NCBI GenBank assembly: GCA_021813945.1
Contig: JAKAJD010000003.1
Location: 1 to 43,192, forward strand
Direction of reading: 5' to 3'
Length of the DNA: 43,192 bases
From: a bacterium
GTDB taxonomy: Bacteria; Patescibacteriota; Microgenomatia; Curtissbacterales; GWA2-41-24
Shown in pieces: positions 54 to 17,768 of the stretch. The translations under genes and the position numbers were made by a program. The stretch's first letter is position 1. Each line of letters opens with the position of its first letter. The notes beneath the pieces were generated by a model. That model had not been told where the DNA came from, did no database searches, and was given only the letters and a program-made list of their open reading frames with translations.

Positions 54-125
54 TCCCCGGTGGCGCAACGGTAGCGCGGCGAGCTGTTAACTCGAAGGCT
101 GTAGGTTCGAATCCTACCCGGGGAG
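54..125 (+). tRNA. tRNA-Asn (anticodon GTT), CCA not encoded (followed by CAA)
   Basis: Cloverleaf read directly: acceptor stem TCCCCGG(54-60)/CCGGGGA(118-124), discriminator G125, D stem GCGC/GCGC, anticodon loop CT-GTT-AA (GTT at 86-88), T arm GTAGG-TTCGAAT-CCTAC. Confidence 0.97.
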
Positions 126-1802
126 CAAAGGTGCTAAATTTGAAAAGTTTAAGGCTGTTTGGCTTGTGCTATCAGCCTTTTCTTTAGGTTCGAACATTGG
201 AGATATTTCCGGTACTTCTTGTATTGCTTCTTCAATAAACATTAACGGTTTTTCCAAATCAACACGCACAATTTTGTCTTTTAGAATAAGGTTCGAACCA
301 AGAGCAGCCAGAATCTCCCTTTTCTCTTCTCTTGTTCCGTTTTTGAACCAATGTCTGGCATGGCAAGCGAAGTTAAAAGTCTTTTCTGTCTGTGTAAACA
401 ATTTATTGACTCTATTGTCAGTATCCACGAGCTTTTCTTGCAAGGAGTCTTTTTCTATCAAAAGTGCCTCTTTTTGCGCTTTAAATTCCTCGTCTGTTAA
501 TAATGATCCATCTACATTCTGAGGGGAAATTTTGAGTTTAACTAGATTATCGATGCGTTTTAAGCAATTCTGGTATGTGTTTTGTAAAGAATCGACAATT
601 GAGCTCCTGTCTTCTATTTCTTTGTCAGTTACTTCATTAAGGTACTTAATTGCCCAATCTTTGAACTTTTCTGAAATTTGTATTTTTTCAAGCAGTTGAT
701 CTATTTGTTCTTCCAGGGTTTCTTTCCTAATGCTTCCCTGAGTACATTTCGGATTTTTCCTTTTTGTGCAGTGGTAGTAAATATAGTGTAAAAGTTTGGG
801 CTGGTGCATATTCTCAATTTTTATCTTGCAGTATGGGCACGACACCTTATTATTGGATGAAAATTTCTGGTTGCAAGCCGAGCAAATAATTTGCCATTTC
901 TCCTCGGCCGTTATTGCTGCGTTGCATTCGCCGCATTTTAGGAGACCGACGTAATCAAAGCTATTGGTTTTGGGTCTAGGGCTATCTGTTCGACCTACCA
1001 ATTTTTGAACCCGTTCGAATTCCTCTTTCGTGATCATTGGCTCATGTTTGCCCTTATGCCACTCTCCGCTTCCAGCAGGGTATTCGAAGTATCCATAATA
1101 GAAAGGGTCTGTAAACAGGCGGTAGATTGCACTTCGAGTCATAGGTTTGCCTCCTAACTTTTTGTGTTTTGGTGTTCGATAGCCCCATTCATTGTTAAGC
1201 TTTTCTAGGATTTGTGGTGGGGTATAAGCGCCAGTTATTATCAGCTCCCACGCTTTTCTGATTAGGTTAAAACTGGCAGGATCTTTCTTAATTGTTTTGC
1301 TACCCTTTTCTGCGTATTTATCGTTCATATAGCCTGGCTTTGCTCCGCTAGGGAGCCAGCCATTTTGAGCTTTTTGCTTAAGACCGCGTTTAACATTTTT
1401 GGAAAGGTCGTCAACAAACTTTTGAGCCATACCGAACTCGATATACATAAGGATGCTATTTTCATTAGTCTGGTTAAAGGTTTGGGCTGGCGTCACAATA
1501 TCTATTCCTTGCTCCTTTAATGCCCAAATAATAGAGCCACCGTCAACAGGGTTTCTTGCAAGCCTGTCTAGCTTCCAACAAAGGACGCCTTGGGCTTCTC
1601 CGGATAAAACCTTGGTCATCATTTCAGCGAATACAGGTCTTCCAGGCGCTTTTGCTGATTGTGATTCGGTAAATGTATGAGTAACTTTGATATGAAGCTT
1701 GCTTGCCAACTCCTTTAGCTCTCTTACTTGGGAATCGATTGAAAGTATTTGTCTGTCCTCAGACTCGCTTGATTTTCTTGCGTAGATGAAATATTTACTC
1801 AT
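114..1802 (-). CDS. Large serine recombinase (Int1); stop codon lies inside the tRNA (antisense)
   Basis: N-terminal YARKS catalytic Ser, DRLARN motif, recombinase domain, Zn ribbon (CGEC...CSAC...CPYC...YYHCT), coiled coil; ends LLPG*, the reverse complement of the tRNA 3' end. Confidence 0.95.
   Translation of the reverse strand: MSKYFIYARKSSESEDRQILSIDSQVRELKELASKLHIKVTHTFTESQSAKAPGRPVFAEMMTKVLSGEAQGVLCWKLDRLARNPVDGGSIIWALKEQGIDIVTPAQTFNQTNENSILMYIEFGMAQKFVDDLSKNVKRGLKQKAQNGWLPSGAKPGYMNDKYAEKGSKTIKKDPASFNLIRKAWELIITGAYTPPQILEKLNNEWGYRTPKHKKLGGKPMTRSAIYRLFTDPFYYGYFEYPAGSGEWHKGKHEPMITKEEFERVQKLVGRTDSPRPKTNSFDYVGLLKCGECNAAITAEEKWQIICSACNQKFSSNNKVSCPYCKIKIENMHQPKLLHYIYYHCTKRKNPKCTQGSIRKETLEEQIDQLLEKIQISEKFKDWAIKYLNEVTDKEIEDRSSIVDSLQNTYQNCLKRIDNLVKLKISPQNVDGSLLTDEEFKAQKEALLIEKDSLQEKLVDTDNRVNKLFTQTEKTFNFACHARHWFKNGTREEKREILAALGSNLILKDKIVRVDLEKPLMFIEEAIQEVPEISPMFEPKEKADSTSQTALNFSNLAPLLPG
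122..126 (+). other. attL core (GGAGC) at the tRNA 3' end
   Basis: GAGC recurs at 7130-7133 and 17682-17685 in the same orientation and the same codon phase (CTC = Leu on the minus strand) relative to the recombinase ORFs. Confidence 0.8.
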
Positions 1803-1824
1803 ATCTTAACTCTATTTTTTACGT

Positions 1825-1835
1825 GACTTATAGTC
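1825..1835. promoter_or_regulatory. Single C-box-like operator GACTTATAGTC upstream of int1
   Basis: Palindrome GACT-TAT-AGTC 23-33 bp upstream of the int1 start; matches the paired boxes at 3895-3920. Confidence 0.7.
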
Positions 1836-2313
1836 AACTAAGTGATTTCTTCAGCGCTAACTCTCTCGATTTCTCCTTGAGTTCTTTAATTCTCTTATTT
1901 CTTCTTTCTTCAATAGATTCGTTTTGTTCTGCCCCCTGAGCAAACTGTTCAGCCAATTGAACATGTTCTTCAGTACTGTGATCAGTATTTTCGTATGTCT
2001 GAACCAAATACGTTTCGTCATAAACATAAAGAATAGTCCTTGAAATTCTTTTTATATAACCTTTTTTAATGAGTGACTTTGTATATCCTGATAGTTTTCC
2101 TATCGACCAGTTTGGAAGCAATATGCTCTTGATTTCTCGATAGGAAAGATTAAACGTACGATAATGTCTACTTTTTGAAAAGTAGTTTGCTAATAGTCGA
2201 TATAGTCTTAAGAGTCTGACTTCGGGATCTAATAGGTGAGTTTCGACTAACAAAAGCTTTTTGTGTTCCCGAACGAATCCATTGAAGTTCACGTCTTCTA
2301 TTGTCATTTTCAT
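1834..2313 (-). CDS. Winged-helix DNA-binding protein (Rep N-terminal-like)
   Basis: LSYREIKSIL...SIGKLSGYTKSLIKKGYIKR pattern resembles a wHTH; located directly upstream of the LSR. Confidence 0.6.
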   Translation of the reverse strand: MKMTIEDVNFNGFVREHKKLLLVETHLLDPEVRLLRLYRLLANYFSKSRHYRTFNLSYREIKSILLPNWSIGKLSGYTKSLIKKGYIKRISRTILYVYDETYLVQTYENTDHSTEEHVQLAEQFAQGAEQNESIEERRNKRIKELKEKSRELALKKSLS

Positions 2314-2329
2314 TTTAAAGTTTGCCTTA

Positions 2330-2473
2330 TTAGTTCTTGGGTGGCCTATATATGGTTTTAAAAAAATTTAATAGTCTCGAAGCTTTTTCAATTGCTTCAG
2401 CGTTATTTAACCGGATTCCAAACTCTTGGTAATAGATCGTTTTAAATTCTTCCACGGCTTCCGGTGATGGCAC
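2330..2473 (-). CDS. 47-aa microprotein (not in ORF track)
   Basis: Manual translation from GTG 2473: MPSPEAVEEFKTIYYQEFGIRLNNAEAIEKASRLLNFFKTIYRPPKN*; starts immediately after the DUF5659 stop; positional paralog at 10875-11018. Confidence 0.75.
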   Translation of the reverse strand: MPSPEAVEEFKTIYYQEFGIRLNNAEAIEKASRLLNFFKTIYRPPKN

Positions 2474-2474
2474 T

Positions 2475-2723
2475 TTAGCTTTCTGCATATATCCTGGTTT
2501 TTAGTATTTTGATTTGGTTGAAGTATGATTGGGGATCAACTCTGAGTTTCCCTTGCCAGTAATCATCTATCAGCTTATTTAGTTTTGGTGTTTTTTTAAA
2601 ACGGAAGAGAACTTTAGATGGGTTAGATTTATCGATAGAATCTAAAAAGAAGAACAGTGAAATTGCCGAGGCCAAAGCCATATCGTGCGTACTGAACAGC
2701 TCCATACTTTTAGTAATAGTCAT
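2475..2723 (-). CDS. DUF5659-like small protein
   Basis: FSTHDMALASAI...IDKSNPSKVLFRF...YWQGKLRVDPQSYFNQIKILKTRIY; clearly paralogous to 11021-11275. Family name from recall. Confidence 0.75.
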   Translation of the reverse strand: MTITKSMELFSTHDMALASAISLFFFLDSIDKSNPSKVLFRFKKTPKLNKLIDDYWQGKLRVDPQSYFNQIKILKTRIYAES

Positions 2724-2773
2724 ATGGAGTTAATGATAAAAATCGGGAAAGGAAGTAGATATTACACCAATAT

Positions 2774-3394
2774 TTAAATCTTGGTGTTTAAGATATGCTC
2801 TCTGGCTCTACCGCGTTTGGTAATTTCATGTATTTTCTTTTTGTATCTATTTACTTCAGTGCCAACTGTAGAATAGACGGCCTCAAACGGCAGCTTATTC
2901 TCGTATTCATCTGCAATTTGTGAATGCGTTTTGGTTGTTTTTTCTTTTACTAAAGTGTTTTTTAAAGAAACATTTGTTGTTTTTGCTTTTGGCCTAACGG
3001 GCAAAAAACTTAATTTGTAATAAAACTGTTTTTTATTGTTTTTGATAAACGTAAATAATTCGTTTATCTTTATTTGTTCTCTGATGTTGATCTGAATTGA
3101 GGACCCTTGACCTTTGAGCTCTATAGGTTGGTGCTGGGTTTTTGTGGCTGGTGTAATCCGATTATGGAGTATTAAGTTCATAAAAGATGACAACCAAAAT
3201 AATTCCTGGAGATTATATCTTTGAACTAGAATCAAAGCATTTTCAAAGAGTTTCTGTTTTCCTTTTTTGTTTAGAATTTCAGATTCTTTTCTTGCCAACG
3301 GTAGGAAATCTTCGAGGAAGGGGTCAGACTCTAAAAGTTTAAAGAAGTTTATTTCTTCACGAGAAAGCCCTTTGTGATGAATTTTAATTTTCAT
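2774..3394 (-). CDS. Hypothetical Lys-rich protein, possible DNA-binding regulator
   Basis: 206-aa ORF in the same position as 11356-12207 in element B. Confidence 0.65.
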   Translation of the reverse strand: MKIKIHHKGLSREEINFFKLLESDPFLEDFLPLARKESEILNKKGKQKLFENALILVQRYNLQELFWLSSFMNLILHNRITPATKTQHQPIELKGQGSSIQINIREQIKINELFTFIKNNKKQFYYKLSFLPVRPKAKTTNVSLKNTLVKEKTTKTHSQIADEYENKLPFEAVYSTVGTEVNRYKKKIHEITKRGRAREHILNTKI

Positions 3395-3437
3395 TGTAAT
3401 AATTGATGGAAGACAATTATAAACTAAGCGAGAGGTA

Positions 3438-3884
3438 TTATTTTCTAATTTCGTCGAGCTTCTTTTTAACTTGGTATGGTTTGTCTATGTGTGTAAGAAC
3501 AATCTCTTGAAACGTAGTTCCGGCAGTATTAATAAATAGAGAGCCAGTTTTAGTAAGTATTTTGTCAAAAAATTTTTCTGATATTGTTACATCCGTGATC
3601 TTGTTGTAATCAACACTAATGGTGTTTGTAGAAAGAAGGCCCTTATGGACTAGTATTCTTTTATTAGTAAAAGCATACGCATTGGATTTTTTTAGATAAA
3701 AACCATAATAAATTAAGGCTACGATGAATGTTATTAATCCTAGCCCGAATATGAATAATAGGGGAACGGATATTACACCCCAGATAATTAAATATGTTTT
3801 GGAGTAATTACCGGAGACAGAAAATTCGTATAAGACTTTCTCCTTTTCAGATAACACTTTTTGCCAAATGTCTGTGTAAATCAT
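3438..3884 (-). CDS. Membrane protein with bacterial PH (bPH_2) domain
   Basis: N-terminal TM hairpin then YAFTNKRILVHKGLLS...KITDVTISEK...TGSLFINTAG, the typical bPH_2 pattern. Confidence 0.8.
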   Translation of the reverse strand: MIYTDIWQKVLSEKEKVLYEFSVSGNYSKTYLIIWGVISVPLLFIFGLGLITFIVALIYYGFYLKKSNAYAFTNKRILVHKGLLSTNTISVDYNKITDVTISEKFFDKILTKTGSLFINTAGTTFQEIVLTHIDKPYQVKKKLDEIRK

Positions 3885-3890
3885 GGCTAA

Positions 3891-3925
3891 ATGTGACTAA
3901 TAGTCCGTAGACCAATAGTCCACTT
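3891..3925. promoter_or_regulatory. Tandem C-box operator pair
   Basis: ATGT-GACTAATAGTC-CGTA-GACCAATAGTC-CACTT: two GAC(T/C)-N3-AGTC boxes at 3895 and 3910 (15-bp spacing, central GT), just upstream of the XRE gene. Confidence 0.8.
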
Positions 3926-3945
3926 TAGCCCAATTATGGTTTAAA

Positions 3946-4164
3946 GTGGTAAACAAATCAAGTCCGGTTCAAAAAAAGTTTGGTGAGAGAGTACGAAAGA
4001 TAAGAATTAAGGTAGGAATTTCCCAGGAGCAATTAGGTTTTGAGACGGGTTTGGATCGAACGTATATATCTGGGATAGAAAGAGGAACTAGAAATCCTAC
4101 TTTAAAGATAATTTCTAAGATCGCTAAAGCCCTAAAAGTTTCAGCATCAGATTTAATGAAGTAA
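3946..4164 (+). CDS. XRE-family HTH protein, R-M controller (C-protein)-like
   Basis: SQEQLG...LDRTYISGIERGTRNPTL; the LDRTYISGIER recognition helix is typical of C proteins; C-boxes upstream. Confidence 0.9.
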   Translation: MVNKSSPVQKKFGERVRKIRIKVGISQEQLGFETGLDRTYISGIERGTRNPTLKIISKIAKALKVSASDLMK

Positions 4165-4207
4165 AATAATCACAAAAGTTCACCTTTATTCACTTTTTGA
4201 TACCTAA

Positions 4208-4621
4208 ATGAACAATTTATACCAAAGTGCGATAGAGCTTAGGTATGAGGGGTTAACTTATAGAGAAATCTCCGAAAAGCTGGGGAATGGGTTATCCGAA
4301 CTTACACTAAGGCACTATTTTGCTCGCGATGGCCAGTTACACGATACTTATGAGGAGTACGAGGATGATCAGAATAAATTACGATGTAAGGAAGCAAAAA
4401 CACTTCTACGACGAGAGACTATCCATGCTGCCAGGGCTCTAATAAATACTTTAAACAGAGCGGAAGAAAAAGAAGACTACGCTTTGATTTTAAAGGTAGC
4501 AGCAATGATCTTAGATAGAAGCGGACTGCGGATTCCTAAGGATGAGTTAGGTGGAACCGAACCTGGTGATTATGCTGAGCAGAAGGAGACGAGTGAGCTA
4601 ATAAAATCCATTAAATTGTAA
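4208..4621 (+). CDS. HTH protein resembling a phage small terminase subunit
   Basis: N-terminal HTH (GLTYREISEKL...SELTLRHY), helical middle, AAMILDRSG motif seen in TerS-like proteins. Confidence 0.5.
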   Translation: MNNLYQSAIELRYEGLTYREISEKLGNGLSELTLRHYFARDGQLHDTYEEYEDDQNKLRCKEAKTLLRRETIHAARALINTLNRAEEKEDYALILKVAAMILDRSGLRIPKDELGGTEPGDYAEQKETSELIKSIKL

Positions 4622-4769
4622 CAGCACAGATTTTTTGAATAATAAGCTGTTAGCCTCAAAATTGTTAACTTTCATTAACTTTTAACCCTAAAAAACCTGC
4701 TTTTGGATACCGTAAATTTGGCATACTTGTGCGGACCAACTACGCAAACCAGCACAAGATTTAGAGCTT

Positions 4770-5396
4770 CTACAAATGCCTTCTTATTAGACCGGCAAAG
4801 ATTCCTCTTACTTCGAAATATTTTGGATCGACATATATGTTGTTCAACTTCTTGTTCCGAGGTTGTAGCACTACTTGGCCCAAATGATTCACCCCACCGT
4901 AAATTTTTAAAGTGACTTCACCATCTACAACGGCAACGATCATTTCGTTCTGTTGAGGCACTTTTCGATATTTAATTAGGATTATGTCACTATCCCAGAC
5001 GTCGTCTTCAATCATAGAGTCACCTTTTACTTCCAGAGCATAGTAATCTTTTATGTCTCCTTTGATCATGTAGTCTGGCACATCAATGGGTTCGGGATTT
5101 TCAAACGGCTCAATTGGAGGTCCGGCTGCTATTTTTCCGAGAAGGGGTATTTGAATACTCGTTTGATGTGATAAAGAGGTAAATCCACGAGCTAGATTGG
5201 GGAGTTTTTTTATGTGGCCTTTCTTTCTTATGGCCTCAACCATTTCATGAACAGTTGAGACCGCTTTGCCTTCTTGTCTAGCCAGTTCAGAAAGACTGGG
5301 AGCATAACCGTGTTTGCGGTAGTGCGCAACCATTTTGTCTAAAATTTTCTTTTGTATTGGAGTTAATGGTCTTGGTCGAAGGGTATTGACAGTCAT
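4770..5396 (-). CDS. lexA: LexA-family autocleavable repressor (start reassigned to ATG 5396)
   Basis: LTPIQKKIL...GYAPSLSELA N-terminal wHTH; IPLLGKIAAG Ala-Gly cleavage site; GDSM catalytic Ser; VTLK catalytic Lys. Confidence 0.9.
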   Translation of the reverse strand: MTVNTLRPRPLTPIQKKILDKMVAHYRKHGYAPSLSELARQEGKAVSTVHEMVEAIRKKGHIKKLPNLARGFTSLSHQTSIQIPLLGKIAAGPPIEPFENPEPIDVPDYMIKGDIKDYYALEVKGDSMIEDDVWDSDIILIKYRKVPQQNEMIVAVVDGEVTLKIYGGVNHLGQVVLQPRNKKLNNIYVDPKYFEVRGIFAGLIRRHL

Positions 5397-5541
5397 GATT
5401 TGCGCTTGAGATAATATACCCTGAAATCTTCCGAAAGGTAAGATATCAAAAAAATCCGGGGGAAACCGAATTTGTTTGAAGGACGTTAGTCCTTTTAACA
5501 TTTAATCAATAAATCGGCATCCGGTCAAGGTGGTGATAAAA

Positions 5542-5775
5542 ATGCCAGGCAAGAATCAACATGTAGTTCCAGTAGGAAGTGATTGGGGTATTCGTGGAGA
5601 GGGCAATTCTAGACTTACTTCAGTTTTTGAAAATAAACAAGACGCATTAAAGGTAGGTAGGAAGATTGCAATCAACCAACAAGCAGAGCTTGTTATTCAC
5701 GGCCGAGATGGTCGGATCCAAGACAAGGATAGTTTTGGCCACGATCCAGTCCCGCCAAGAGATAAAAAACATTAA
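5542..5775 (+). CDS. DUF2188 family protein (start reassigned to ATG 5542)
   Basis: HVVP...WGIRGEG...F...QDA...ELVIHGRDGRIQ pattern. Confidence 0.85.
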   Translation: MPGKNQHVVPVGSDWGIRGEGNSRLTSVFENKQDALKVGRKIAINQQAELVIHGRDGRIQDKDSFGHDPVPPRDKKH

Positions 5776-5777
5776 AT

Positions 5778-8698: not shown

Positions 8699-8724
8699 AT
8701 TTTTATAGTTATTTTTAGTATATT

Positions 8725-11018: not shown

Positions 11019-11020
11019 AG

Positions 11021-11275
11021 CTATCTTTCTCCGTAAATCCTCCCTTTAATTACCTTGAGCTGGTTAAAGTAAGCCAAAGGCTCGACTCTGACCTCTCTTC
11101 GCCAAAAAGACTCAATAAGCTCATCGAGTTGTTCGTTGCGTTGGAACAGAAAACTAACTTTGTGAGGAGAGGTTCTGTCTATCGAATCAATAGGAAACCA
11201 AAGTGATATAGCAGTAGCCAACGGGAGACTTTGTGTGGAGTAAATAGTATCCAGTTTTATGTTTTCTTGGCTCAT
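11021..11275 (-). CDS. DUF5659-like small protein
   Basis: YSTQSLPLATAI...IDRTSPHKVSFLF...FWRREVRVEPLAYFNQLKVIKGRIY; paralog of 2475-2723. Confidence 0.78.
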   Translation of the reverse strand: MSQENIKLDTIYSTQSLPLATAISLWFPIDSIDRTSPHKVSFLFQRNEQLDELIESFWRREVRVEPLAYFNQLKVIKGRIYGER

Positions 11276-11355
11276 ACTTATGCAAATAAAAAAGCTCTGA
11301 ACTTTTACATCCAGAGCTTACCAAGTGAGCCTCTTGAAATTGTGACACTAATTTT

Positions 11356-12207
11356 TCATTTTTTGTGTAGTAGAAGTCTTGCTCGCTCTTTTAATCGTTG
11401 TTTTTGTTTACGCACGACTTGACTCCTTTTACCAGTATTATCATTAAATATTCTGGTTGCTAAGTCTGTCGAGGTAACCTTGTGGTGCTCTTCCTCACCC
11501 CCAAGCCCTCTTGCAAAATCGAACCGGTGTTCAATCTGTCCCATTTTTCTTGTTTTCAAAGCCGTATCAAGAGTGCGGAAACGCCTGCGTATATTTTTGC
11601 TTCTTTTTAGAATTTCTTTAAGCTCTCTATATGCCTGTCTAAACTTGGGTTTTGGTATTTGCGGGTTATTTCCGACTATTCCTTTAAAGCAGGCGAGAAT
11701 AAATTTTTTCTCTTGAGTGGTAAGCACAAACCTTTCTATTTCGTCAACGTGGTTTATTACTTGGTTAATAAGTTCGAAGTTATAGGAGGGAATATATGAT
11801 GGTTTGCCATAAAGTAGATAGTCTTGTACCCAATCGTAAAAATTCAGTGGCAATTTATACTCTTGTATAAGGTCAGTAATCGTTTTTTCAAGCATTTCCC
11901 GTTTCGCGGGTGGCAATGATTCTAGCCAGTCGTGTACTTCGATGTCTACGCTCCTGCCTTCGTACTCAATTTGTATGGTTTTAAAATCATGATTGGGGTT
12001 CAGACTGGGGATTTTAAATTGTGTTTGTATATCTCGGATTTCCGCGTTAAACTTCTTATCCCGTTTAAGATAAGTCGCAATCTCCTCATTTAGATTGCTT
12101 CGCACTCCAAAGAATTTTTCGGCTTCACGCCACAAACTTATTTGAATTAGAGTGCCAATGGGAGAAAGTTTCTTTAATGTATTGATGTGTTTTTTCTTTA
12201 ATCTCAT
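11356..12207 (-). CDS. Hypothetical protein with a basic C-terminus
   Basis: 283-aa ORF, first gene of the leftward backbone operon. Confidence 0.7.
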   Translation of the reverse strand: MRLKKKHINTLKKLSPIGTLIQISLWREAEKFFGVRSNLNEEIATYLKRDKKFNAEIRDIQTQFKIPSLNPNHDFKTIQIEYEGRSVDIEVHDWLESLPPAKREMLEKTITDLIQEYKLPLNFYDWVQDYLLYGKPSYIPSYNFELINQVINHVDEIERFVLTTQEKKFILACFKGIVGNNPQIPKPKFRQAYRELKEILKRSKNIRRRFRTLDTALKTRKMGQIEHRFDFARGLGGEEEHHKVTSTDLATRIFNDNTGKRSQVVRKQKQRLKERARLLLHKK

Positions 12208-12225
12208 TCTTATGTTTATACTTCG

Positions 12226-12242
12226 GTTTACCCGAAAAGTCG
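12226..12242 (+). repeat. Element B dispersed motif, copy 2
   Basis: GTTTACCCGAAAAGTCG, 16/17 identical to 17561-17577; in the divergent promoter region. Confidence 0.75.
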
Positions 12243-12272
12243 GTTAATTGATTTAGCCTGGTGATAGTGTAT

Positions 12273-12292
12273 ACTAATATCAAGTAATATCA
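12273..12292 (+). promoter_or_regulatory. 10-bp tandem direct repeats upstream of the excisionase-like gene
   Basis: ACTAATATCA-AGTAATATCA, ending 11 bp before ATG 12304; TATCAAGTAAT(A/G)TCAA is 15/16 identical to 8730-8745. Confidence 0.65.
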
Positions 12293-12303
12293 AAGAATAA
12301 TTT

Positions 12304-12489
12304 ATGAAAAAAGACAATAGCGAAGGTTTAATTAAGCTTAGCGAGGCATGTAAGATTCTGAATGTTCACCCCCAAACGCTCCGGCAGTGGGATAGAAAAG
12401 GGATTCTAAAAGCTGTGAGGTTTGGACAAAGAGGTGATAGGAGATATAGAAAGGAAGATATCTTAAAATTAATTGGCAAAAAAACTTAG
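12304..12489 (+). CDS. MerR-type HTH, excisionase/RDF-like
   Basis: LIKLSEACKILNVHPQTLRQWDRKG...GDRRYRKEDI. Confidence 0.9.
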   Translation: MKKDNSEGLIKLSEACKILNVHPQTLRQWDRKGILKAVRFGQRGDRRYRKEDILKLIGKKT

Positions 12490-12491
12490 TT

Positions 12492-12908
12492 ATGAATCTA
12501 AATATTAAGGAATTCTTGTCGTCAAGCCTTGTAGATGCAGTAAAAAGGCTTGGCATAGTTGGGACGATTTCTTATGTAGGAGCTGCCACTGTTTTCGTTG
12601 TTCTCCTTTTGGTCAATTTTAATGCGGAACCTGTAAAAGCTGGCGTGTTGTTAAGCATAGGCGTTGCCTTGTTAATGTACTCAGGAGCAATCTATTGGTC
12701 TGAAACAAAACAAGAAACCGAGAAAATGAAGGAGGCTTTAGGAGTTCTGCGTGAGGTATATAACCGTATGGCCGAACAAATATCAACAGCAGATAAAGAT
12801 AAAACCGTTTCAATAACCATGACTATTGATAACCTGCCAGATAAAATTGCAGAGGTTATTAAGAAGACTTCAATTCAAGGAAAAGAAAGTCATGAAACAA
12901 AAAAATAA
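12492..12908 (+). CDS. Two-TM membrane protein with coiled-coil tail
   Basis: Two hydrophobic segments followed by a charged helical region. Confidence 0.7.
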   Translation: MNLNIKEFLSSSLVDAVKRLGIVGTISYVGAATVFVVLLLVNFNAEPVKAGVLLSIGVALLMYSGAIYWSETKQETEKMKEALGVLREVYNRMAEQISTADKDKTVSITMTIDNLPDKIAEVIKKTSIQGKESHETKK

Positions 12909-13635
12909 ATTTGCATTAGTTACAGGAGCATCCACAGGCATCGGTAGAGCAATTGCTATTGAATTAGCAAAATCAGGTGTTTATGTTGGATTGGTTGCTC
13001 GAACTGAGGATAGACTAAAAATAACTAAAAAATTAATTGAACAAGGAGGTGGTCAAGTTGAAATCTTCATTGCTGATTTGAGCAGAGTTGAGTCGATAAA
13101 TAACTTAATTTTTCAAGTTAAAAACAAAACGAAAAAGATTAGTATTTTAATAAACGTTGCTGGAATATGGCATGGAGACGATGAGGTATTTGCGGATAAA
13201 GATTTTGATACCTTTTCCCAGAAAGTAATTCTTGATACTTATCATGTTGGCATGATTGCCCCTACCTTACTTGCTCACGCTCTCATACCCTTAATGCTAA
13301 GGGGTAGCAGAATAATAAACATTTCAGGTACTTTTGAAAGTGGTGCTAAGGGATGGCTACCTTACTTTGTATCAAAGAAAGCAATAGAAGACTTGACCAT
13401 CGGTTTGGCTGAGGAGTTGAAAGACAAAGGCATAACAGCCAATGCTATTTCTCCTTCTGATACTGCTACGGAAGCCTACAAAAAGTATTTTCCTCAGTAT
13501 ATGGCAGAGGCTATTGAACCAGAAGAAATCGCCAAATTTGCAGTATATTTGTGCTCACCTCAGGCAAGTGACATTTCGGGTAAAGTGTTTGTGTTGAAAA
13601 AGGGCAAACAACCTTTTGAGGGATATCATACTTAA
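12892..13635 (+). CDS. Short-chain dehydrogenase/reductase (start reassigned to ATG 12892)
   Basis: TGASTGIG glycine-rich motif, NVAG, YFVSK catalytic YxxxK. Confidence 0.92.
   Translation: MKQKNKFALVTGASTGIGRAIAIELAKSGVYVGLVARTEDRLKITKKLIEQGGGQVEIFIADLSRVESINNLIFQVKNKTKKISILINVAGIWHGDDEVFADKDFDTFSQKVILDTYHVGMIAPTLLAHALIPLMLRGSRIINISGTFESGAKGWLPYFVSKKAIEDLTIGLAEELKDKGITANAISPSDTATEAYKKYFPQYMAEAIEPEEIAKFAVYLCSPQASDISGKVFVLKKGKQPFEGYHT
13570..13584 (-). repeat. Element B dispersed motif, copy 3 (inside the SDR gene)
   Basis: GACATTTCGGGTAAA, a 15-bp exact match to the reverse complement of 17562-17576. Confidence 0.7.
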
Positions 13636-13653
13636 GAAAATAAAAAAAGCATT

Positions 13654-14121
13654 ATGGCAAGTAGAGATAGAGATGAAGATAAACTTCGCAAAAGGCTTGT
13701 TTCAGCATTAAGAGAAATCTTAACAAAGAATGACCCCGAACTTTTAGTTGAAGAAGTACACGGCGTTGGGGAGCATGGATTAGATATTATTTTTCTCGCT
13801 CGTGATTACTCCGGAGAAAAACATTGCTTCGGAATACAAGTAAAAGCAGTTAATATTTCCTGTCAGGGACACCCTACGAAGGATGTTAAAGAGATAATAG
13901 GGCAACTTACTATCGCAACAGGTTACGATTATAAATTCCAAGCAGATAATACCTATGAGTTTAGTGGCTTTTATGTTGTGACAGACAAAGAAGTTTCCGA
14001 AGTAGCAAAAAAGTATATCTCGTCGGCATTCAAACACGGAAAGCCAATTTACTATTTGTACGGCTCAAGATTGGAGAAGTTTCTACTAGACAACGAAAAT
14101 AAAAACATAACAAAACCATGA
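13654..14121 (+). CDS. Mrr-like PD-(D/E)xK restriction endonuclease-fold protein
   Basis: GEHGLDII...FGIQVK motif (D...QxK), FYVVT strand; 155 aa, stand-alone. Confidence 0.8.
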   Translation: MASRDRDEDKLRKRLVSALREILTKNDPELLVEEVHGVGEHGLDIIFLARDYSGEKHCFGIQVKAVNISCQGHPTKDVKEIIGQLTIATGYDYKFQADNTYEFSGFYVVTDKEVSEVAKKYISSAFKHGKPIYYLYGSRLEKFLLDNENKNITKP

Positions 14122-16295
14122 AAATAAAATTTGAATTTAAAGACGACAAGAGTAACCCTACGGAACAAGTAAAAGCATTCATCGCATACTGGCTGGAAGA
14201 ACATGGTATCAGAGATGAGGTAAAAGTATTATCCCCAGAAAAAATTTTGGGTAAAGGAGCAGACTATTTTGTTATAAATTCTGGACTTCTAATTGAAGCG
14301 ACCCAGTTGATTGACAATGAAGATTTAGCTAGGAGTGCTAAGTGGGCTATTACGGTAAATACTCTAAGCAAATTAATTAAAGAAGATAGCAGATTTTCTT
14401 CGATTAAAGGATTGCATTCTATTTCTACACCAGAAAACTTCGGTCTTAAAGCATCGCAACTAAAAAACGAGTCTGTATTAAATACAAAGATAAGTAAGGC
14501 TGTTGACGACATAATTAAAGCAATTTTGTCTAAAAGACCAGAAGTGGATGTATTTGGATATAAACTAAGAGTTGAAAAAGTTAACGAGGTTGACGATGGT
14601 ATTTATTTCTCAACCATAGGAAGAGCGAGGTCTATTAGTGTAGCAGGAATTTTCCATGAGAATTTGAGGAAAAAATTTGACAAGGCCAATACACAGCTTG
14701 GGATAGAAGAAATTGATGGAGCCAAGGTTAAGAGCAGAGTGCTTCTAATTGTAAATAAATATCGTTTGCTAACTTTCGATTGGGATTTATTTGAGGGACT
14801 CAGTTATTCATATAAAGAGCTAGTCGAGAAATACAGCAACATCAGCGAGATTTGGTTTCAAGCTGAAGACGGGGAAGGTAAATATCAGCATAAGTTGCTT
14901 TACAGAAAGGCTATCTTTACGCAGTTTGAAAACATGGATTTCTCAAATATGAACAGCCAAGATTACGAGGTCTTCGCAAAGTGGTTTTCAGCGCTTGAGA
15001 AATTAGATGATAATAAAAAACAAATCTTAATCGAGGCTCTTAAAATTCTATTAAAAAGACACTCACCTCATAAAATCTTTCCTGACCCCCAGACGAGAAT
15101 TGAAATGGTAAGGTATGGAAGATGGCTTGCCGAGAACAACAAAAGGAATGACGCAAACTGGCTGATAAAGCAATTTCTTAACGACCCTGACCCAAGCGAC
15201 CCCCCAACTGGGGACAAAAAAGATTATGGTAATGAGTTGCATGAAAGCATTAAGAAAGCAACTAAATCTGATATACATGCGATACATACTGTAAAAGGTC
15301 ATTTGGCATGGACTGTTCAATTGCTATCACTAAAAAAAGATTTTCTTCTCAAAGAGTCTTATGGTTATACACAAGGGGTGCTAAGAAGTACTAAGCACTT
15401 ATATTTAATCCTTCAGTGGATATTCCCACTAATCGAAATATCTAATAGACGATTCTGGTTAAAGGAACTCGATGAAAAACTTTATGAAGATTTTAGGAAG
15501 CTATGCTTTGAGCTTCTTGAGTCTTATTCAAAATATCCTGATATAGCAAAAGGGTTAGTTCATGTTTTTCATTACTTCAAGGAATTAACCACAGAGGAGA
15601 CTAAAGAAGTACTAAATAAACTTGAGAAAGCCGATGATTATGAAACGTTACTTCTTTATTTTGCAATATACAGAGAAAAGCACTTCAAAGAGGAAAAATA
15701 CAATAAAGAGATTAGAGATTACAATCCTACATATGCAAAGAAAAAACTTGAAGAGACGATATTAAATGACGATAACGGACTTCTCAATCTGCGTTCGGGA
15801 ATAGCTTGGAATATTTGGAAGATACTATCAGAGGATGAAAAAGAGCTTGAAACCCTTATCCCATTAATAGACAGTTTTTTAACAAGCCCTTACGATGGTC
15901 ATCTTTTTCACAATTTTGAGAGAATTGTTGAGGAGTATATTGATAAATTCCCAGAGAAAAGTATCACATGGTTTATACAAATAATTAAAGCTGCGAAACT
16001 GTATTTAGACAAAAAACCTGACGAAGGCAGAAACGTGTGGTTAAGCACCGAAATAGGAAAAGTATTAAGGAAAACAGCAGAGAAAAAACCCGAGCAACTG
16101 CTGGTACTAATAGAACTTCTATATGAAATGTGGATGAAAGGAGCGTTCGTGGGAACTATATCAGAGATTTTTACTTCGTATAAATTTATTGATAACAAAG
16201 AGCTTAGATTACAACTGGAAGGTAAGTTCAAGGAAATTTACTTTCGAATGAAAAAAGTGAATGAGAAACTTGAAAACGTAGATTGGTCTGAGTAA
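14118..16295 (+). CDS. 725-aa protein: possible N-terminal nuclease-like domain plus long alpha-helical C-terminus
   Basis: GADYF-x6-IEAT near the N-terminus resembles a PD-(D/E)xK-type centre; the C-terminal ~450 aa looks helical-repeat-like; ATGA overlap with the upstream nuclease gene. Confidence 0.7.
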   Translation: MKIKFEFKDDKSNPTEQVKAFIAYWLEEHGIRDEVKVLSPEKILGKGADYFVINSGLLIEATQLIDNEDLARSAKWAITVNTLSKLIKEDSRFSSIKGLHSISTPENFGLKASQLKNESVLNTKISKAVDDIIKAILSKRPEVDVFGYKLRVEKVNEVDDGIYFSTIGRARSISVAGIFHENLRKKFDKANTQLGIEEIDGAKVKSRVLLIVNKYRLLTFDWDLFEGLSYSYKELVEKYSNISEIWFQAEDGEGKYQHKLLYRKAIFTQFENMDFSNMNSQDYEVFAKWFSALEKLDDNKKQILIEALKILLKRHSPHKIFPDPQTRIEMVRYGRWLAENNKRNDANWLIKQFLNDPDPSDPPTGDKKDYGNELHESIKKATKSDIHAIHTVKGHLAWTVQLLSLKKDFLLKESYGYTQGVLRSTKHLYLILQWIFPLIEISNRRFWLKELDEKLYEDFRKLCFELLESYSKYPDIAKGLVHVFHYFKELTTEETKEVLNKLEKADDYETLLLYFAIYREKHFKEEKYNKEIRDYNPTYAKKKLEETILNDDNGLLNLRSGIAWNIWKILSEDEKELETLIPLIDSFLTSPYDGHLFHNFERIVEEYIDKFPEKSITWFIQIIKAAKLYLDKKPDEGRNVWLSTEIGKVLRKTAEKKPEQLLVLIELLYEMWMKGAFVGTISEIFTSYKFIDNKELRLQLEGKFKEIYFRMKKVNEKLENVDWSE

Positions 16296-16303
16296 TTATC
16301 GAC

Positions 16304-16317
16304 TTTACCTAAATGTC
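16304..16317 (+). repeat. Element B dispersed motif, degenerate copy 4
   Basis: TTTACCTAAATGTC versus TTTACCCGAAATGTC. Confidence 0.45.
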
Positions 16318-16325
16318 AGAGGGGA

Positions 16326-16535
16326 TTATTTTTCAAACAATTGAGCTAATTCTATTTCAAGAGCACGAGCAATCTTAGTGAGAGTTTTTAGGGTTGGATT
16401 TCTTTTTCCACTTTCTATATCCACAATCGAACGAGCTTCGATTTTTGTAAGCTCCGCTAATTTTTCCTGAGTCATATCCTTCTCTTTCCGTAACCTTTTT
16501 ATCCGTTCGCCTACTTTTTTGTAAGTCCCAATCAT
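16326..16535 (-). CDS. XRE-family HTH regulator
   Basis: GERIKRLRKEKDMTQEKLAE...IESGKRNPTLKTL. Confidence 0.9.
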   Translation of the reverse strand: MIGTYKKVGERIKRLRKEKDMTQEKLAELTKIEARSIVDIESGKRNPTLKTLTKIARALEIELAQLFEK

Positions 16536-16549
16536 ATTGACTAAAGTGT

Positions 16550-16615
16550 GAAATATATGTAAGATTTAAACCAGGAAATATATTTCGGATTTTTATTAAA
16601 ATAGACTGAAATATA
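16550..16615. promoter_or_regulatory. Candidate XRE operators (GAAATATA x3)
   Basis: GAAATATA at 16550, 16575 and 16608; 16575-16586 is the perfect palindrome GAAATATATTTC; lies in the divergent promoter region. Confidence 0.55.
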
Positions 16616-16676
16616 GGCATAAAAAGAATAAAAAATACTTTGGATTAAACAACCAAAAGATTAATAAAAACTACTT

Positions 16677-17027
16677 ATGAATAGAACTTTTAGCGGTACA
16701 CGATTTTTAAAACTATTTCAAATAATTTCAGCCTCATCCATTCTAATTGCTGTGTTAGCTCTTTTAGCTTCTAAATATTCTCTCCCCGTGGCATTTAGTA
16801 GTTATGAAAGAAAGCAACAATATTGTTATGACAAATACTGGAATGTAAGTATGCCAACGTACGCTTCCTGTTTTAGAAGGGAAGCAGACTACTGGTCTTT
16901 CTGGATTCAAGTAGAAGAAAAATCTCCTAGAATTCTTGTAGCTGTATTAGGTATCAATTTACTTGGATTTGGCTTATACAGATTTTTGTTTCCGCGTAGC
17001 CATAGAAGTCTGCATGCTGAAGCATAA
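16677..17027 (+). CDS. Small membrane protein with a Cys pair
   Basis: TM - loop (YCYD...ASCF) - TM. Confidence 0.6.
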   Translation: MNRTFSGTRFLKLFQIISASSILIAVLALLASKYSLPVAFSSYERKQQYCYDKYWNVSMPTYASCFRREADYWSFWIQVEEKSPRILVAVLGINLLGFGLYRFLFPRSHRSLHAEA

Positions 17028-17028
17028 T

Positions 17029-17208
17029 ATGATTAACTTAATTTACCGCATTCTCTATCTTTATACATTCGCATTTGCGTATTTTATTTCCATCGCCTTG
17101 CTGTATGAAACAGTATTTAACGGATGGAAACCATGGGGGCTGACGCTGTTATTGCCGGTTGATTTGTTCCTGATTCTCGTTTTTATCAACCGCCGGAAAA
17201 AAGCATGA
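17029..17208 (+). CDS. 59-aa two-TM protein (start reassigned to ATG 17029)
   Basis: Hydrophobic, basic C-terminus; starts 1 nt after the previous stop. Confidence 0.5.
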   Translation: MINLIYRILYLYTFAFAYFISIALLYETVFNGWKPWGLTLLLPVDLFLILVFINRRKKA

Positions 17209-17560
17209 TAAGTAATGATTACAGTCATACTACTGTAGTAATACAGTAATACTTATAGTGTGTGGTACGACACATTAAACACATAAAAATATGCTGCAAA
17301 GTGTGTAAGTAATTAACCCCCGTATTTCCAAATAGCCTCAAAAATAGATGTTTTTCGTGATACCCCCATTGATACTCACTGTTACTTTTATGTATACATG
17401 TATATGTGCTGCATGATACTTTATGATGATTTTTGTGATGACAAGTTATGACTTTATGATGTCTTGTTTTACCTGCGGTGTGCGGATATTGACCTGAAGG
17501 TTGAACAGGTTTGAGCAACTTGAAGTAGTAGTACCCTCCCTCGTCAAATTATGAAACTGA

Positions 17561-17577
17561 GTTTACCCGAAATGTCG
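17561..17577 (+). repeat. Element B dispersed motif, copy 5
   Basis: GTTTACCCGAAATGTCG, about 105 bp inside the right end. Confidence 0.75.
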
Positions 17578-17582
17578 AAAGA

Positions 17583-17687
17583 CTAATAGGTAGATAAGAA
17601 GTATTGTGATTGTTTAAGCGTAAGCTCAGGATATTCAACCTCCTCTGACCAATTCACTCGTCTAAATTCGTCCCACTTGGCGAGCCA
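17583..17687 (-). other. Orphan recombinase C-terminal coding segment
   Basis: Translates WLAKWDEFRRVNWSEEVEYPELTLKQSQYFLSTY*; in-frame stop three codons upstream (17694-17696) and no start; in phase with both LSRs across the GAGC core. Confidence 0.8.
17669..17687 (+). other. attR of the tandem array
   Basis: CGTCCCACTTGGC-GA-GCCA; joining the tRNA at GA restores ...CCGGGGAG-CCA. Confidence 0.85.
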
Positions 17688-17763: not shown

Positions 17764-17768
17764 GGCGA

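What the first reader, a model, noticed from the sequence alone, without database searches (positions are those of the whole stretch)
114..17687. att sites inside the recombinase ORFs: integration swaps LSR C-terminal tails
Seen: both LSR genes read through an att core (GA dinucleotide in GAGC at 123, 7130, 17682) in the same codon phase. Int1 ends LL-PG* using antisense tRNA sequence, Int2 ends WL-RLVENVRTSYVTSH*, and a start-less segment WL-AKWDEFRRVNWSEEVEYPELTLKQSQYFLSTY* lies at 17583-17687. Joining 17669-17683 to 7132-7144 gives CGTCCCACTTGGC-GA-GCCAAATAGGACG (arms 11/13 inverted-identical), the expected look of an LSR attP, and fuses the orphan tail in frame to Int2. Inference: free Int2 ends ...RPIWLAKWDEFRR...; free Int1 ends ...APLLRLVENVRT...; integrated Int2 now carries Int1's tail. 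The recombinase C-terminus would therefore report integration state (stability, directionality or RDF interaction). This parallels attP-within-repressor switches of some mycobacteriophages, but here the switch would be in the integrase itself.
Basis: partly seen in the sequence, partly recalled or inferred. Interest (0 to 1): 0.88.

Follow-up and report, generated by a model that had tools for sequence, protein, structure and literature searches.

The report
Integrase genes that contain their own attachment sites
Two small mobile elements sit in tandem in a tRNA-Asn gene, and each carries its attachment site inside the end of its own serine integrase gene, so insertion and excision change the enzyme's C-terminal tail; this layout is shared by hundreds of related integrases and I found no published description of it.

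Summary
Two large serine recombinase (LSR) genes (114-1802, 7085-8698, minus strand) and a start-less tail (17583-17684) all cross a GAGC core in the same codon phase, at a Leu CTC codon.

Joining the Int2 body to the orphan tail gives an 11/13 palindromic attP. Joining the outer flanks rebuilds tRNA-Asn with its encoded CCA.

The pattern is family-wide in Patescibacteria. 44 of 59 related junctions run into antisense tRNA. Start-less orphan tails lie 6-10 kb upstream. One circular contig carries an intact gene.

The arms follow canonical LSR grammar. TTCGAACC sits at positions 12-19 of the tRNA arm and TTAGAACC at 17-24 of the element arm, the known 5-bp shift. So W-L, W-D and F/V-R-T are dual-coded with DNA motifs that mimic the tRNA.

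Beyond the site, the long tail is a roughly 36-residue helical mini-domain (pLDDT 85) under protein-level purifying selection, even as an orphan. Integration severs it.

The structural reading is well supported. A regulatory role for the tail swap is plausible but untested. An excisionase-like gene in E2 and short-tail variants argue against a simple directionality switch. I rate it a new variant of a known kind.

The parts
54..126 (+). tRNA-Asn(GTT). Its T-arm and acceptor 3' strand form the B arm of attB, now the left half of attL.
   Evidence: ARAGORN. The antisense reads TC|CCCGGGTAGGATTCGAACC, with TTCGAACC at positions 12-19 from the core.
123..124 (.). Crossover dinucleotide GA at attL. 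These are the last two bases of the tRNA acceptor stem, and the antisense TC of Int1's Leu CTC codon.
   Evidence: This Leu is CTC in 57 of 63 family junctions.
114..1802 (-). Int1, a large serine recombinase in its integrated form. The body ends APLL, followed by PG* read from antisense tRNA.
   Evidence: Pfam Resolvase + Recombinase + Zn_ribbon_recom; translation; 77 of the top 120 homologues end in antisense-tRNA peptides or an immediate stop.
125..7131 (.). Element E1 (7,007 bp), next to the tRNA and inferred to be the later arrival. It carries Int1, a bPH protein, a LexA/S24-type repressor (4770-5501, minus strand) and a Schlafen/AlbA_2 protein (5778-7103, + strand).
7085..7129 (-). E1's free-state tail codons (RLVENVRTSYVTSH*), which form the P arm of attP1. 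They are currently fused to the Int2 body.
   Evidence: TTAGAACC lies at positions 17-24 from the core, at 7106-7113. The arm is 19/24 nt identical to the P arm of the intact gene in L125 and 17/21 nt identical to the L091 tail DNA.
7106..7156 (.). Hybrid junction: P1 arm + GA (7130-7131) + P2' arm. It is flanked by P-type arms on both sides, so it is neither an attB nor an attP.
7085..8698 (-). Int2, a large serine recombinase. The body (7130-8698) ends RPIWL and now carries E1's tail.
   Evidence: Pfam; translation; AF2 model and Foldseek hits to SPbeta, Bxb1, phiC31 and LI integrases.
7132..17683 (.). Element E2 (10,552 bp). It carries Int2, a 431-aa HTH protein, a primase-type CHC2 zinc-finger protein, an SDR, a 725-aa unknown protein and small HTH proteins.
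12304..12489 (+). 61-aa HTH_17/MerR-type protein, a candidate excisionase or recombination directionality factor of E2.
   Evidence: Precomputed Pfam PF12728/PF13411; PHROG excisionase families phrog_66, 2907 and 7735.
17583..17681 (-). Orphan, start-less free-state tail of Int2 (AKWDEFRRVNWSEEVEYPELTLKQSQYFLSTY*). Its first 8 codons form the P2 arm of attP2.
   Evidence: (E=1e-12).
17658..17708 (.). attR: P2 arm + GA (17682-17683) + B' flank. The flank begins GCCA and restores the tRNA discriminator and CCA in the rebuilt attB.
   Evidence: B' arms of 14 relatives share only GC(C/A)A.

Best explanation
What is there (shown). The window holds two unrelated-cargo integrative elements, E1 (7.0 kb) and E2 (10.6 kb), inserted in tandem into the 3' end of a Patescibacteria tRNA-Asn gene. 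Each was inserted by its own large serine recombinase.

The attP of each element lies inside the 3' end of its own integrase ORF. The 2-bp crossover sits in a Leu CTC codon, which is the antisense of the tRNA acceptor end. The codons just before it form the P' arm and the 8 codons after it form the P arm.

The arms mimic the tRNA. An inner GGA(Y) motif keeps the same register in all arms. A T-loop-like TT(C/A)GAAC motif lies 5 bp further out in attP than in attB, as in canonical LSR sites.

Consequence (shown from sequence). Recombination changes the protein. The free, circular element encodes a full-length enzyme. Integration replaces everything after the Leu with 2-12 residues of antisense tRNA. 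In a tandem array it is replaced by the neighbour's tail, which is why Int2 now ends in E1's tail while its own tail sits orphaned at attR.

Order of arrival (inferred). E1 arrived second, using the tRNA-side junction of E2 as its attB. This fits because only the tRNA half of attB is conserved.

Function (inferred). For long-tail enzymes such as Int2, the detached part is an autonomous helical mini-domain of about 36 residues on a disordered linker, kept by protein-level selection. The enzyme therefore exists as a free-state isoform and an integrated-state isoform. I think the mini-domain most likely acts only in the free state, promoting or gating attP x attB integration or enzyme stability. 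The truncated core would stay competent for RDF-assisted excision. I put about 0.35 on that functional part.
For: Anatomy and phase.

attP2 palindrome of 11/13, and a rebuilt attB that restores ...CCGGGGA-G-CCA.

Family-wide dichotomy of tails. Among the top 120 homologues, Int2 family has 72 integrated-type and 34 free-type; Int1 family has 77 and 30.

Related loci. 44 of 59 Int2-family junctions continue into antisense tRNA. Where ARAGORN calls the tRNA it is Asn in 30 loci and Gln in 3.

Start-less orphan tails lie on the integrase strand 6-10 kb upstream in L001, L003, L007, L026, L032, L041, L044, L056 and L059.

Free forms. L090 is a 9,588-bp contig with an exact 23-bp terminal overlap, an intact Int1-family gene and no tRNA. 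In L088 an ORF continues in frame across the contig ends.

Int1 reconstruction: intact relative L125 and P0232/L091.

att grammar and the 5-bp shift of the outer motif, matching Rutherford et al. 2013.

LSR identity: Pfam; AF2 pLDDT 84 and Foldseek hits to SPbeta, Bxb1, phiC31 and LI integrases.

Tail as a protein module.
- The crossover Leu is CTC in 20 of 22 tails, which is a DNA constraint.
- Pro+15 is invariant with third-position entropy of 1.98 bits. Leu+26 uses TTG, TTA and CTC. Arg+4 is AGA in 8 and CGA in 7.
- Close pairs have pS far above pN in the distal tail, including orphan-orphan pairs: 0.53 vs 0.06, 0.86 vs 0.18, 0.44 vs 0.07.
- The tail alone folds with pLDDT 84.9, and the crossover lies inside helix 1.
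- 345 representative clusters carry the module at a C-terminus.

B' arms show no consensus beyond GC(C/A)A, which explains accretion at the tRNA side.
Against: - No junction or circle evidence exists for this particular pair of elements. All 9 contigs carrying Int2 show the same tandem arrangement, and the 90% cluster of Int2 has a single member.
- attP1 is not palindromic (3/13). Both E1 arms deviate from the family's inner GGAY motif.
- The P' arms lack the outer motif.
- Short-tail enzymes, including E1's own 14-residue tail, have no mini-domain. The module is therefore not a general requirement.
- E2 encodes an excisionase-like protein, so directionality need not depend on the tail.
- The first 8 tail codons are constrained at DNA level. 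Part of the peptide conservation is therefore not evidence of protein function.
- Orphan detection is biased towards intact tails.
- pS values near 0.8 are saturated.
Confidence: 0.8

Rival explanations
1. The overlap of ORF and att site is real but functionally neutral. Compact elements place attP at the very end of int. tRNA mimicry dictates the first tail codons. The two protein isoforms behave the same, and the tail only supplies a stop codon or generic stability.
For: Short-tail variants exist with barely more than the 8 P-arm codons, including E1's own tail. Integrated forms carry arbitrary tails of 2-12 residues, and hybrid tails are tolerated. W-D and F/V-R-T are explained by DNA motifs. 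An excisionase-like gene is present.
Against: The distal 22 codons lie beyond any LSR att site yet show protein-level purifying selection, even in orphans. They fold confidently as an autonomous module whose first helix is cut by the crossover. The module is shared by at least 3 LSR subfamilies that are only 27% identical.
Confidence: 0.3
2. E1 and E2 are fixed, no longer mobile relics in this genome. The tail swap is a historical scar rather than an operating switch here.
For: The arrangement is identical in all 9 contigs from several samples. E1's arms deviate from the family motifs and attP1 lacks symmetry. The tRNA lost its encoded CCA at the E1 junction.
Against: Both integrase ORFs, the orphan tail, the repressor and the excisionase-like gene are intact. 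The attP2 arms are 11/13 symmetric. L125 carries the same asymmetric attP1 type in an intact gene.
Confidence: 0.3
3. The whole 125-17683 segment is one composite 17.6-kb element with two recombinases, and the 7130 site is an internal site rather than a boundary.
For: The two parts always occur together in the available assemblies.
Against: Relatives are single elements of 6-10 kb, each with one LSR next to the tRNA and one orphan tail. The 7130 junction consists of a P-type arm from one family and a P' arm from another. Each half has its own regulators.
Confidence: 0.05
4. The 17583-17687 peptide is the remnant of a decayed third recombinase gene, or a chance ORF, and is unrelated to Int2.
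For: It has no start codon, and in L003 a similar tail is attached to the C-terminal part of another LSR.
Against: A stop codon lies two codons upstream of W-L, and the upstream DNA is the tRNA-restoring B' flank rather than LSR sequence. The palindrome with the Int2 body is 11/13. The tail is 56% identical, by my manual count, to the orphan tail of L001, whose integrase is 75% identical to Int2.
Confidence: 0.03

Closest known systems
SSV-type 'suicidal' tyrosine integrases of archaeal viruses and plasmids (Badel et al. 2020, PMC7253208)
   Same: The recombination site lies inside the integrase ORF, so integration splits the gene and excision rebuilds it. Hybrid genes assembled from parts of different origin are seen, as with the Int2 body carrying E1's tail. 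The targets are tRNA genes.
   Different: Those are tyrosine recombinases, and the split yields two inactive pseudogenes. Here the enzyme is a serine recombinase. Only a C-terminal tail or mini-domain is removed, and all catalytic and DNA-binding domains stay on one ORF.
Integration-dependent immunity of mycobacteriophages BPs, Brujita and Charlie (Broussard & Hatfull 2013, PMC3694055)
   Same: attP lies inside a coding sequence, so the free and integrated genomes express different C-termini. There, the removed C-terminus is a functional degradation tag.
   Different: In those phages the split gene is the repressor and the integrase is a tyrosine enzyme with an unchanged tag. Here the integrase itself is altered. 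The LexA-type repressor of E1 (4770-5501) is far from any att site. No degron is evident in the tails.
Canonical phage large serine integrases (LI/A118, Bxb1, phiC31, SPbeta)
   Same: The domain set and fold are the same. The sites have a 2-bp crossover and short att sites. The inner RD motif keeps its register and the outer ZD motif sits 5 bp further out in attP than in attB.
   Different: [quoted passage not shown] Here attP is inside int, the target is a tRNA 3' end, only one attB half-site is conserved, and the P' arm lacks the outer motif.
Tandem accretion of integrative elements at tRNA genes (known for tyrosine-integrase islands and ICE/IME arrays; from my own knowledge, not checked here)
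   Same: Successive elements target the same tRNA and pile up, leaving hybrid junctions. L032 shows three orphan tails in a row.
   Different: With long identity blocks the flanking ORFs do not change. With the 2-bp serine crossover, the neighbour's tail becomes part of the protein.
Engineered integrase-RDF fusions (Olorunniji et al. 2017, PMC5737554; seen, title and abstract only)
   Same: A module appended to the integrase is used to set recombination directionality. This is a conceptual precedent for a tail acting as a switch.
   Different: That system is artificial, and the appended module is an RDF that promotes excision. Here the natural module is present in the free state, where integration is needed, and its activity is unknown.

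Membership tests
Large serine recombinase (serine integrase) | N-terminal resolvase catalytic domain with the nucleophilic Ser | tested here: met
   PF00239 at E=7e-24 for Int1 and 1e-20 for Int2. Invariant R8/S10 in the Int2 family and R9/S11 in the Int1 family.
Large serine recombinase (serine integrase) | Recombinase domain plus zinc-ribbon domain with an inserted coiled coil | tested here: met
   PF07508 and PF13408. Four invariant Cys. AF2 long helices at 337-441. Foldseek E=1e-14 to 1e-18 against SPbeta, Bxb1 and phiC31 integrases.
Large serine recombinase att-site grammar | 2-bp crossover flanked by imperfect inverted repeats in attP | tested here: inconclusive
   attP2 matches 11/13 around GA. 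attP1 matches 3/13 and L125 shares that asymmetry. The exact dinucleotide within GAGC is inferred from symmetry and was not mapped.
Large serine recombinase att-site grammar | Outer (ZD) motif shifted 5 bp towards the centre in attB relative to attP, with the inner (RD) motif in the same register | tested here: met
   TTCGAACC lies at 12-19 in 44 B arms. TTyGAAC lies at 17/18-23 in 23 P arms. GGAY lies at 9-12 in the B, P and P' arms. The rule is taken from Rutherford 2013. It is met for the B and P arms only, not for P' or B'.
Large serine recombinase | Catalyses attP x attB integration; excision needs an RDF | not testable with these tools
   Only indirect evidence is available: integrated and free configurations of relatives, and an excisionase-like gene in E2.
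SSV-type suicidal integrase | attP inside the integrase ORF | tested here: met
SSV-type suicidal integrase | Tyrosine recombinase whose gene is split into two inactive pseudogenes | tested here: not met
   The enzyme is a serine recombinase. After integration 523 of 555 residues, including all known domains, remain on one ORF. This is an analogue, not a member.
Integration-dependent immunity switch | attP within the repressor gene, with integration removing a C-terminal degradation tag | tested here: not met
   The repressor-like gene at 4770-5501 is intact and about 1.6 kb from the nearest att core. The gene altered here is the integrase. No tag was tested.
tRNA-targeting integrative element (genomic island) | Inserts in the 3' end of a tRNA gene and restores the tRNA with element DNA | tested here: met
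   tRNA-Asn at 54-126 remains a complete tRNA call. Int2-type P' arms supply G-CCA, since TGG CTC is the antisense. The E1 junction supplies GCAA, so the encoded CCA is lost there.

The most novel reading that the evidence does not exclude
The severed C-terminal mini-domain is a built-in state sensor for serine integrases. In this reading only the full-length enzyme made from the circular element is integration-competent, or is barred from excision. The truncated enzyme made from the integrated copy has a different directionality, RDF responsiveness or stability. The DNA rearrangement would then set the enzyme's own direction. This would be a natural protein-level directionality switch in the family used for genome engineering, encoded by an att site that also mimics a tRNA.
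Probability: 0.25. Interest if true: 0.88.

Novelty: new variant of a known kind. Interest (0 to 1): 0.72.

Why it matters
Serine integrases are the main tools for one-way insertion of large DNA. Their directionality is thought to rest on the coiled coil and a separate RDF protein.

This is a large, natural and apparently undescribed clade. There are thousands of homologues, and 345 representative clusters carry the tail module. In it:
- attP is embedded in the integrase ORF;
- the att arms mimic the T-arm and CCA end of a tRNA, so several conserved residues are really DNA motifs read as protein;
- integration and excision toggle a folded C-terminal mini-domain on and off the enzyme.

That gives a directly testable question: do the two isoforms differ in direction, activity or stability?

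It also gives a ready set of compact enzyme and site pairs with a highly conserved target, tRNA-Asn. And it offers an explanation for how elements accrete at tRNA genes in Patescibacteria, whose mobile elements are poorly known.

There is also an annotation consequence. Most database entries for these enzymes are the integrated, truncated form with junk tails.

Tried and rejected
- Symmetry test for attP1 (Int1 body + 7085-7131) failed at 3/13, with no better centre nearby. I therefore looked for independent support and found it in L125 and L091.
- The viral-contig scan with the Int2 family gave only 5 weak loci, so these are not typical phages.
- I looked for the free form of this very element. 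No full-length 555-aa Int2 is in the 90% cluster, and all 9 contigs show the same tandem array.
A search for the empty site or circle junction was therefore not run.
- L086, L087 and L088 showed no terminal overlap. Joining the ends of L087 gave no continuous ORF, but joining the ends of L088 did.
- The tail module has no Pfam, PDB-sequence or Foldseek match.
- The cargo proteins have no PADLOC match.
- I checked the phiC31 cryo-EM preprint for a role of a C-terminal tail and found none.
- Ten full-text literature searches, plus reading of Durrant 2021, Integrase-On-Demand, SV1 and Suzuki 2019, found no description of attP inside an LSR ORF or of tRNA-Asn-targeting LSRs in Patescibacteria.
- I rejected 'the tail conservation is purely a DNA constraint' because of the codon third-position data.
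- I rejected 'all tail conservation is protein constraint' because W-L, W-D and F/V-R-T coincide with att motifs.

Full report
**1. The observation**

ARAGORN finds one tRNA, tRNA-Asn(GTT), at 54-126 on the + strand. [quoted passage not shown] They are only 27% identical to each other.

Int1 ends ...APLL-PG*, and its stop codon lies inside the antisense tRNA. Int2 ends ...RPIWL-RLVENVRTSYVTSH*. At 17583-17693 on the minus strand there is a start-less frame, *VEWL-AKWDEFRRVNWSEEVEYPELTLKQSQYFLSTY*.

GAGC occurs at 123, 7130 and 17682. In each case GAG is the antisense of a Leu CTC codon, in the same phase relative to the downstream stop (12, 48 and 102 nt).

Joining the orphan side to the Int2 body gives CGTCCTATTTGGC-TC-GCCAAGTGGGACG in coding orientation. 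The arms match at 11/13 and this is the best palindrome centre in the region. Joining the outer flanks gives ...CCGGGGA-G-CCA-ttcgac, which is tRNA-Asn with an encoded CCA end.

**2. It is a family trait, not a coincidence**

I searched with the rebuilt 555-aa Int2 and found 1,874 homologues. Most of the best 120 cover 94-95% of the query and diverge exactly after the (R/H)PxWL or xLL junction.

- 45 continue with peptides such as PREDSNLEP, PRVDSNHEP or RGLDSNQQP.
- 27 stop within one or two residues.
- 34 carry free-type tails.

DSN is GAT TCG AAC, the antisense of the tRNA T-loop. About twenty homologues cover 98-100% of the query and share the orphan's tail, A/G-x-W-D-D/E-F-R-T-x2-W-x5-Y-P-E-x8-L-L.

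The Int1 family behaves the same way, with 77 integrated-type and 30 free-type among 120.

In 80 genome loci, all in Patescibacteria-like MAGs, the Leu is CTC in 57 of 63 junctions. It is CTG in the three tRNA-Gln cases. 44 of 59 evaluable junctions run straight into an antisense tRNA, which ARAGORN calls as Asn in 30 loci and Gln in 3.

An HMM of the long tails finds start-less orphan tails on the integrase strand, 6-10 kb upstream of the integrase. These are in L001, L003, L007, L026, L032, L041, L044, L056 and L059. It scores the window's orphan at E=1e-12.

Free forms exist. L090 is a 9,588-bp contig with an exact 23-bp terminal overlap. It has no tRNA and an intact Int1-family gene with a free-type tail. 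In L088 (7,977 bp, intact long-tail gene) the ORFs at the two contig ends join in frame.

**3. The att sites obey LSR grammar and mimic the tRNA**

I read each arm outward from the crossover.

- tRNA arm (B), 44 loci: C-g-c-g-g-g-n-a-G-G-A-t-T-C-G-A-A-C-C.
- Tail arm (P), 9 intact + 14 orphan: g-c-c-n-n-a-t-g-G-g-A-c-G-A-t-T-T-t-n-G-A-A-c.
- Integrase-body arm (P'): G-C-C-A-g-A-T-g-G-G-A-c-G.

The inner GGAY motif sits at positions 9-12 in all three arms. The outer T-loop motif TTCGAAC sits at 12/13-18 in B and at 17/18-23 in P. That is the 5-bp shift of the zinc-ribbon-domain motif between attB (11-19) and attP (16-24) described for LI integrase (PMC3783163).

In the window, the tRNA arm has TTCGAACC at 12-19. 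E1's tail arm has TTAGAACC at 17-24 (7106-7113). The orphan arm has TTAGACGA at 17-24.

Several 'conserved residues' are therefore DNA motifs read as protein.

- W-L (TGG CTC) is the antisense of CCA, the discriminator and the acceptor end.
- RPxW and W-D carry the inner motif.
- F-R-T or V-R-T (TTT AGA ACT or GTT CGA ACC) is the T-loop mimic.

The B' arms of 14 elements share nothing beyond GC(C/A)A. Only the tRNA half of attB is conserved. This explains why a tRNA-side junction (tRNA arm + P' arm) can serve as target for the next element, and why arrays grow at the tRNA side. I therefore infer that E1, which lies next to the tRNA, arrived after E2.

**4. E1's reconstruction**

Int1 body + 7085-7131 is not palindromic, at 3/13. 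Both E1 arms also deviate from the inner motif.

However, L125 is an intact gene 49% identical to Int1. It reads ...AKPLL-SIVENIRTFF..., with DNA GCCAAACCTTTGC-TC-TCCATCGTAGAGAACATTAGAACC. It has the same body end as Int1, and 19 of 24 bases match the window's 7106-7129 arm. P0232/L091 reads SLVDDVRTSYIMSS, with 17/21 matching bases.

This subfamily simply has an asymmetric attP.

**5. What the tail is**

AlphaFold2 of the rebuilt Int2 (76-sequence alignment) gives mean pLDDT 84. Foldseek hits SPbeta, Bxb1, phiC31 and LI integrases. After the coiled coil and a last beta/alpha unit there is a disordered linker at 489-512 (pLDDT below 50). Helices follow at 519-530, 534-537 and 541-554 (pLDDT 77-87).

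The 44-residue tail region alone folds with pLDDT 84.9. It is therefore an autonomous mini-domain. The crossover Leu lies inside its first helix, so integration destroys the domain.

Codon statistics on 22 tails separate the two kinds of constraint.

- The crossover Leu is CTC in 20 of 22, which is a DNA constraint.
- Beyond the att site, Pro+15 is invariant with third-position entropy of 1.98 bits.
- Leu+26 uses TTG, TTA and CTC.
- Arg+4 is AGA in 8 and CGA in 7.

Close pairs in the distal tail have pS far above pN. Examples are 0.87 vs 0.05, and orphan-orphan pairs at 0.53 vs 0.06, 0.86 vs 0.18 and 0.44 vs 0.07. Orphan tails under protein-level selection imply that these elements regularly pass through the free state, where the gene is whole.

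A profile of the tail finds 345 representative clusters at E of 1e-3 or better. Nearly all are short proteins with the module at the C-terminus. They are LSR C-terminal fragments and orphans, and they include a third LSR subfamily. The module has no Pfam, PDB or Foldseek relative.

**6. Mechanism**

Shown from sequence: there are two tandem elements, E1 (125-7131) and E2 (7132-17683), each with attP inside its own integrase ORF. Recombination exchanges everything after the Leu codon.

- The free Int2 would be 555 aa and carry the mini-domain.
- After E2 inserted it would have ended WL-PG*.
- After E1 inserted it acquired E1's 14-residue tail.

Inferred: the truncated core must still be able to excise, otherwise orphan tails would not stay under selection. 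The mini-domain is therefore a free-state accessory. It might help or gate attP x attB integration, or alter stability.

Two observations caution against a simple 'tail equals directionality' model. E2 encodes a 61-aa HTH_17/MerR protein with excisionase-family hits. Short-tail enzymes such as Int1 also lack the module.

I put about 0.8 on the structural model and about 0.35 on a state-specific function for the mini-domain. I put about 0.25 on the stronger, most novel reading, that it is a genuine built-in directionality or activity switch.

No evidence of current mobility exists for this locus. All nine contigs carrying Int2 show the same array.

**7. Comparison and novelty**

The nearest precedent is the SSV-type 'suicidal' tyrosine integrases, which have attP in the ORF, a gene split on integration, and hybrid reassembly (PMC7253208). 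Those are tyrosine enzymes that become inactive pseudogenes.

Integration-dependent immunity places attP in the repressor and removes a degradation tag (PMC3694055).

For serine integrases, attP is described as lying upstream or downstream of int (PMC4068962). Ten full-text searches and several papers gave no report of attP inside an LSR ORF, or of tRNA-Asn-targeting LSRs in Patescibacteria.

I therefore class this as a new variant of a known kind. The enzymes are bona fide LSRs with canonical site grammar. What is new is an unreported arrangement that makes the enzyme's C-terminus depend on the state of the DNA.

Noticed in passing
L048 5750-11200; also L064, L031, L033 and proteins P0006, P0038, P0105, P0154, P0175, P0196: There is a second conserved tail class after the junction: P-x-P followed by an amphipathic stretch, for example PTPVAILNILEDFGYLAQLKAQLDIIKKL and ...RQRWNEIKKL. 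In L048 this tail is followed by about 5.3 kb with no LSR-like ORF of 200 aa or more, then tRNA-Asn and rpoD/dnaG. A different kind of element may therefore be sharing the same site and donating its own tail.
   Followed up: partly
L053 11540-11800: An Int2-family gene with an intact long tail and a palindromic attP is followed directly by rpoD/dnaG-like genes. That is the usual host neighbourhood of tRNA-Asn in relatives, yet no tRNA-Asn is found there. I have no explanation.
   Followed up: partly
L032 478, 995 and 3055 (+ strand): Three orphan tails lie in a row, 0.5 and 2 kb apart, upstream of one integrated element. This looks like a pile-up of att remnants from repeated accretion and decay.
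   Followed up: no
window 17684-17710 and the B' arms of 13 relatives: The non-tRNA half of attB has no consensus beyond GC(C/A)A. These LSRs seem to recognise essentially one half-site plus the core, which is unusual for serine integrases.
   Followed up: partly
window 123-130: At the E1 junction the tRNA-Asn gene now reads ...GGGGA-G-CAA instead of the rebuilt ...G-CCA. Int2-type elements restore the encoded CCA (W = TGG) and Int1-type elements (L = TTG) do not, so the tRNA must rely on CCA addition.
   Followed up: no
window 5778-7103 (+) against 7085-7131 (-): E1's last gene is a 441-aa Schlafen/AlbA_2 protein with a weak PHROG helicase hit. It converges on the tail codons now used by Int2 and overlaps them by 19 bp. 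A related SLFN_AlbA_2 + HATPase_c_4 gene is cargo in L086.
   Followed up: partly
window 11021-11275 (-) and E1 2475-2723 (-); L089, L090: Small DUF5659 proteins recur in both E1 and E2 and in unrelated relatives of both integrase families. They may be a conserved core gene of these elements.
   Followed up: no
L004, L005, L007, L011-L013 and others; L028, L031, L034, L069: Many loci are titled as Gammaproteobacteria, Pseudomonadales or even archaea (Methanoperedens, Methanodesulfokora, Bathyarchaeia, Nanoarchaeia), yet they carry the same Patescibacteria-type integrase and tRNA-Asn context. This could be mislabelled bins or contamination, or a wider host range.
   Followed up: no
window 17748-18053 (+): A GIY-YIG nuclease-domain ORF lies about 65 bp beyond attR on the host side.
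   Followed up: no
L091 2331-3542: An IS110-family transposase gene overlaps the 3' end of an Int1-family integrase that has a long free-type tail.
   Followed up: no
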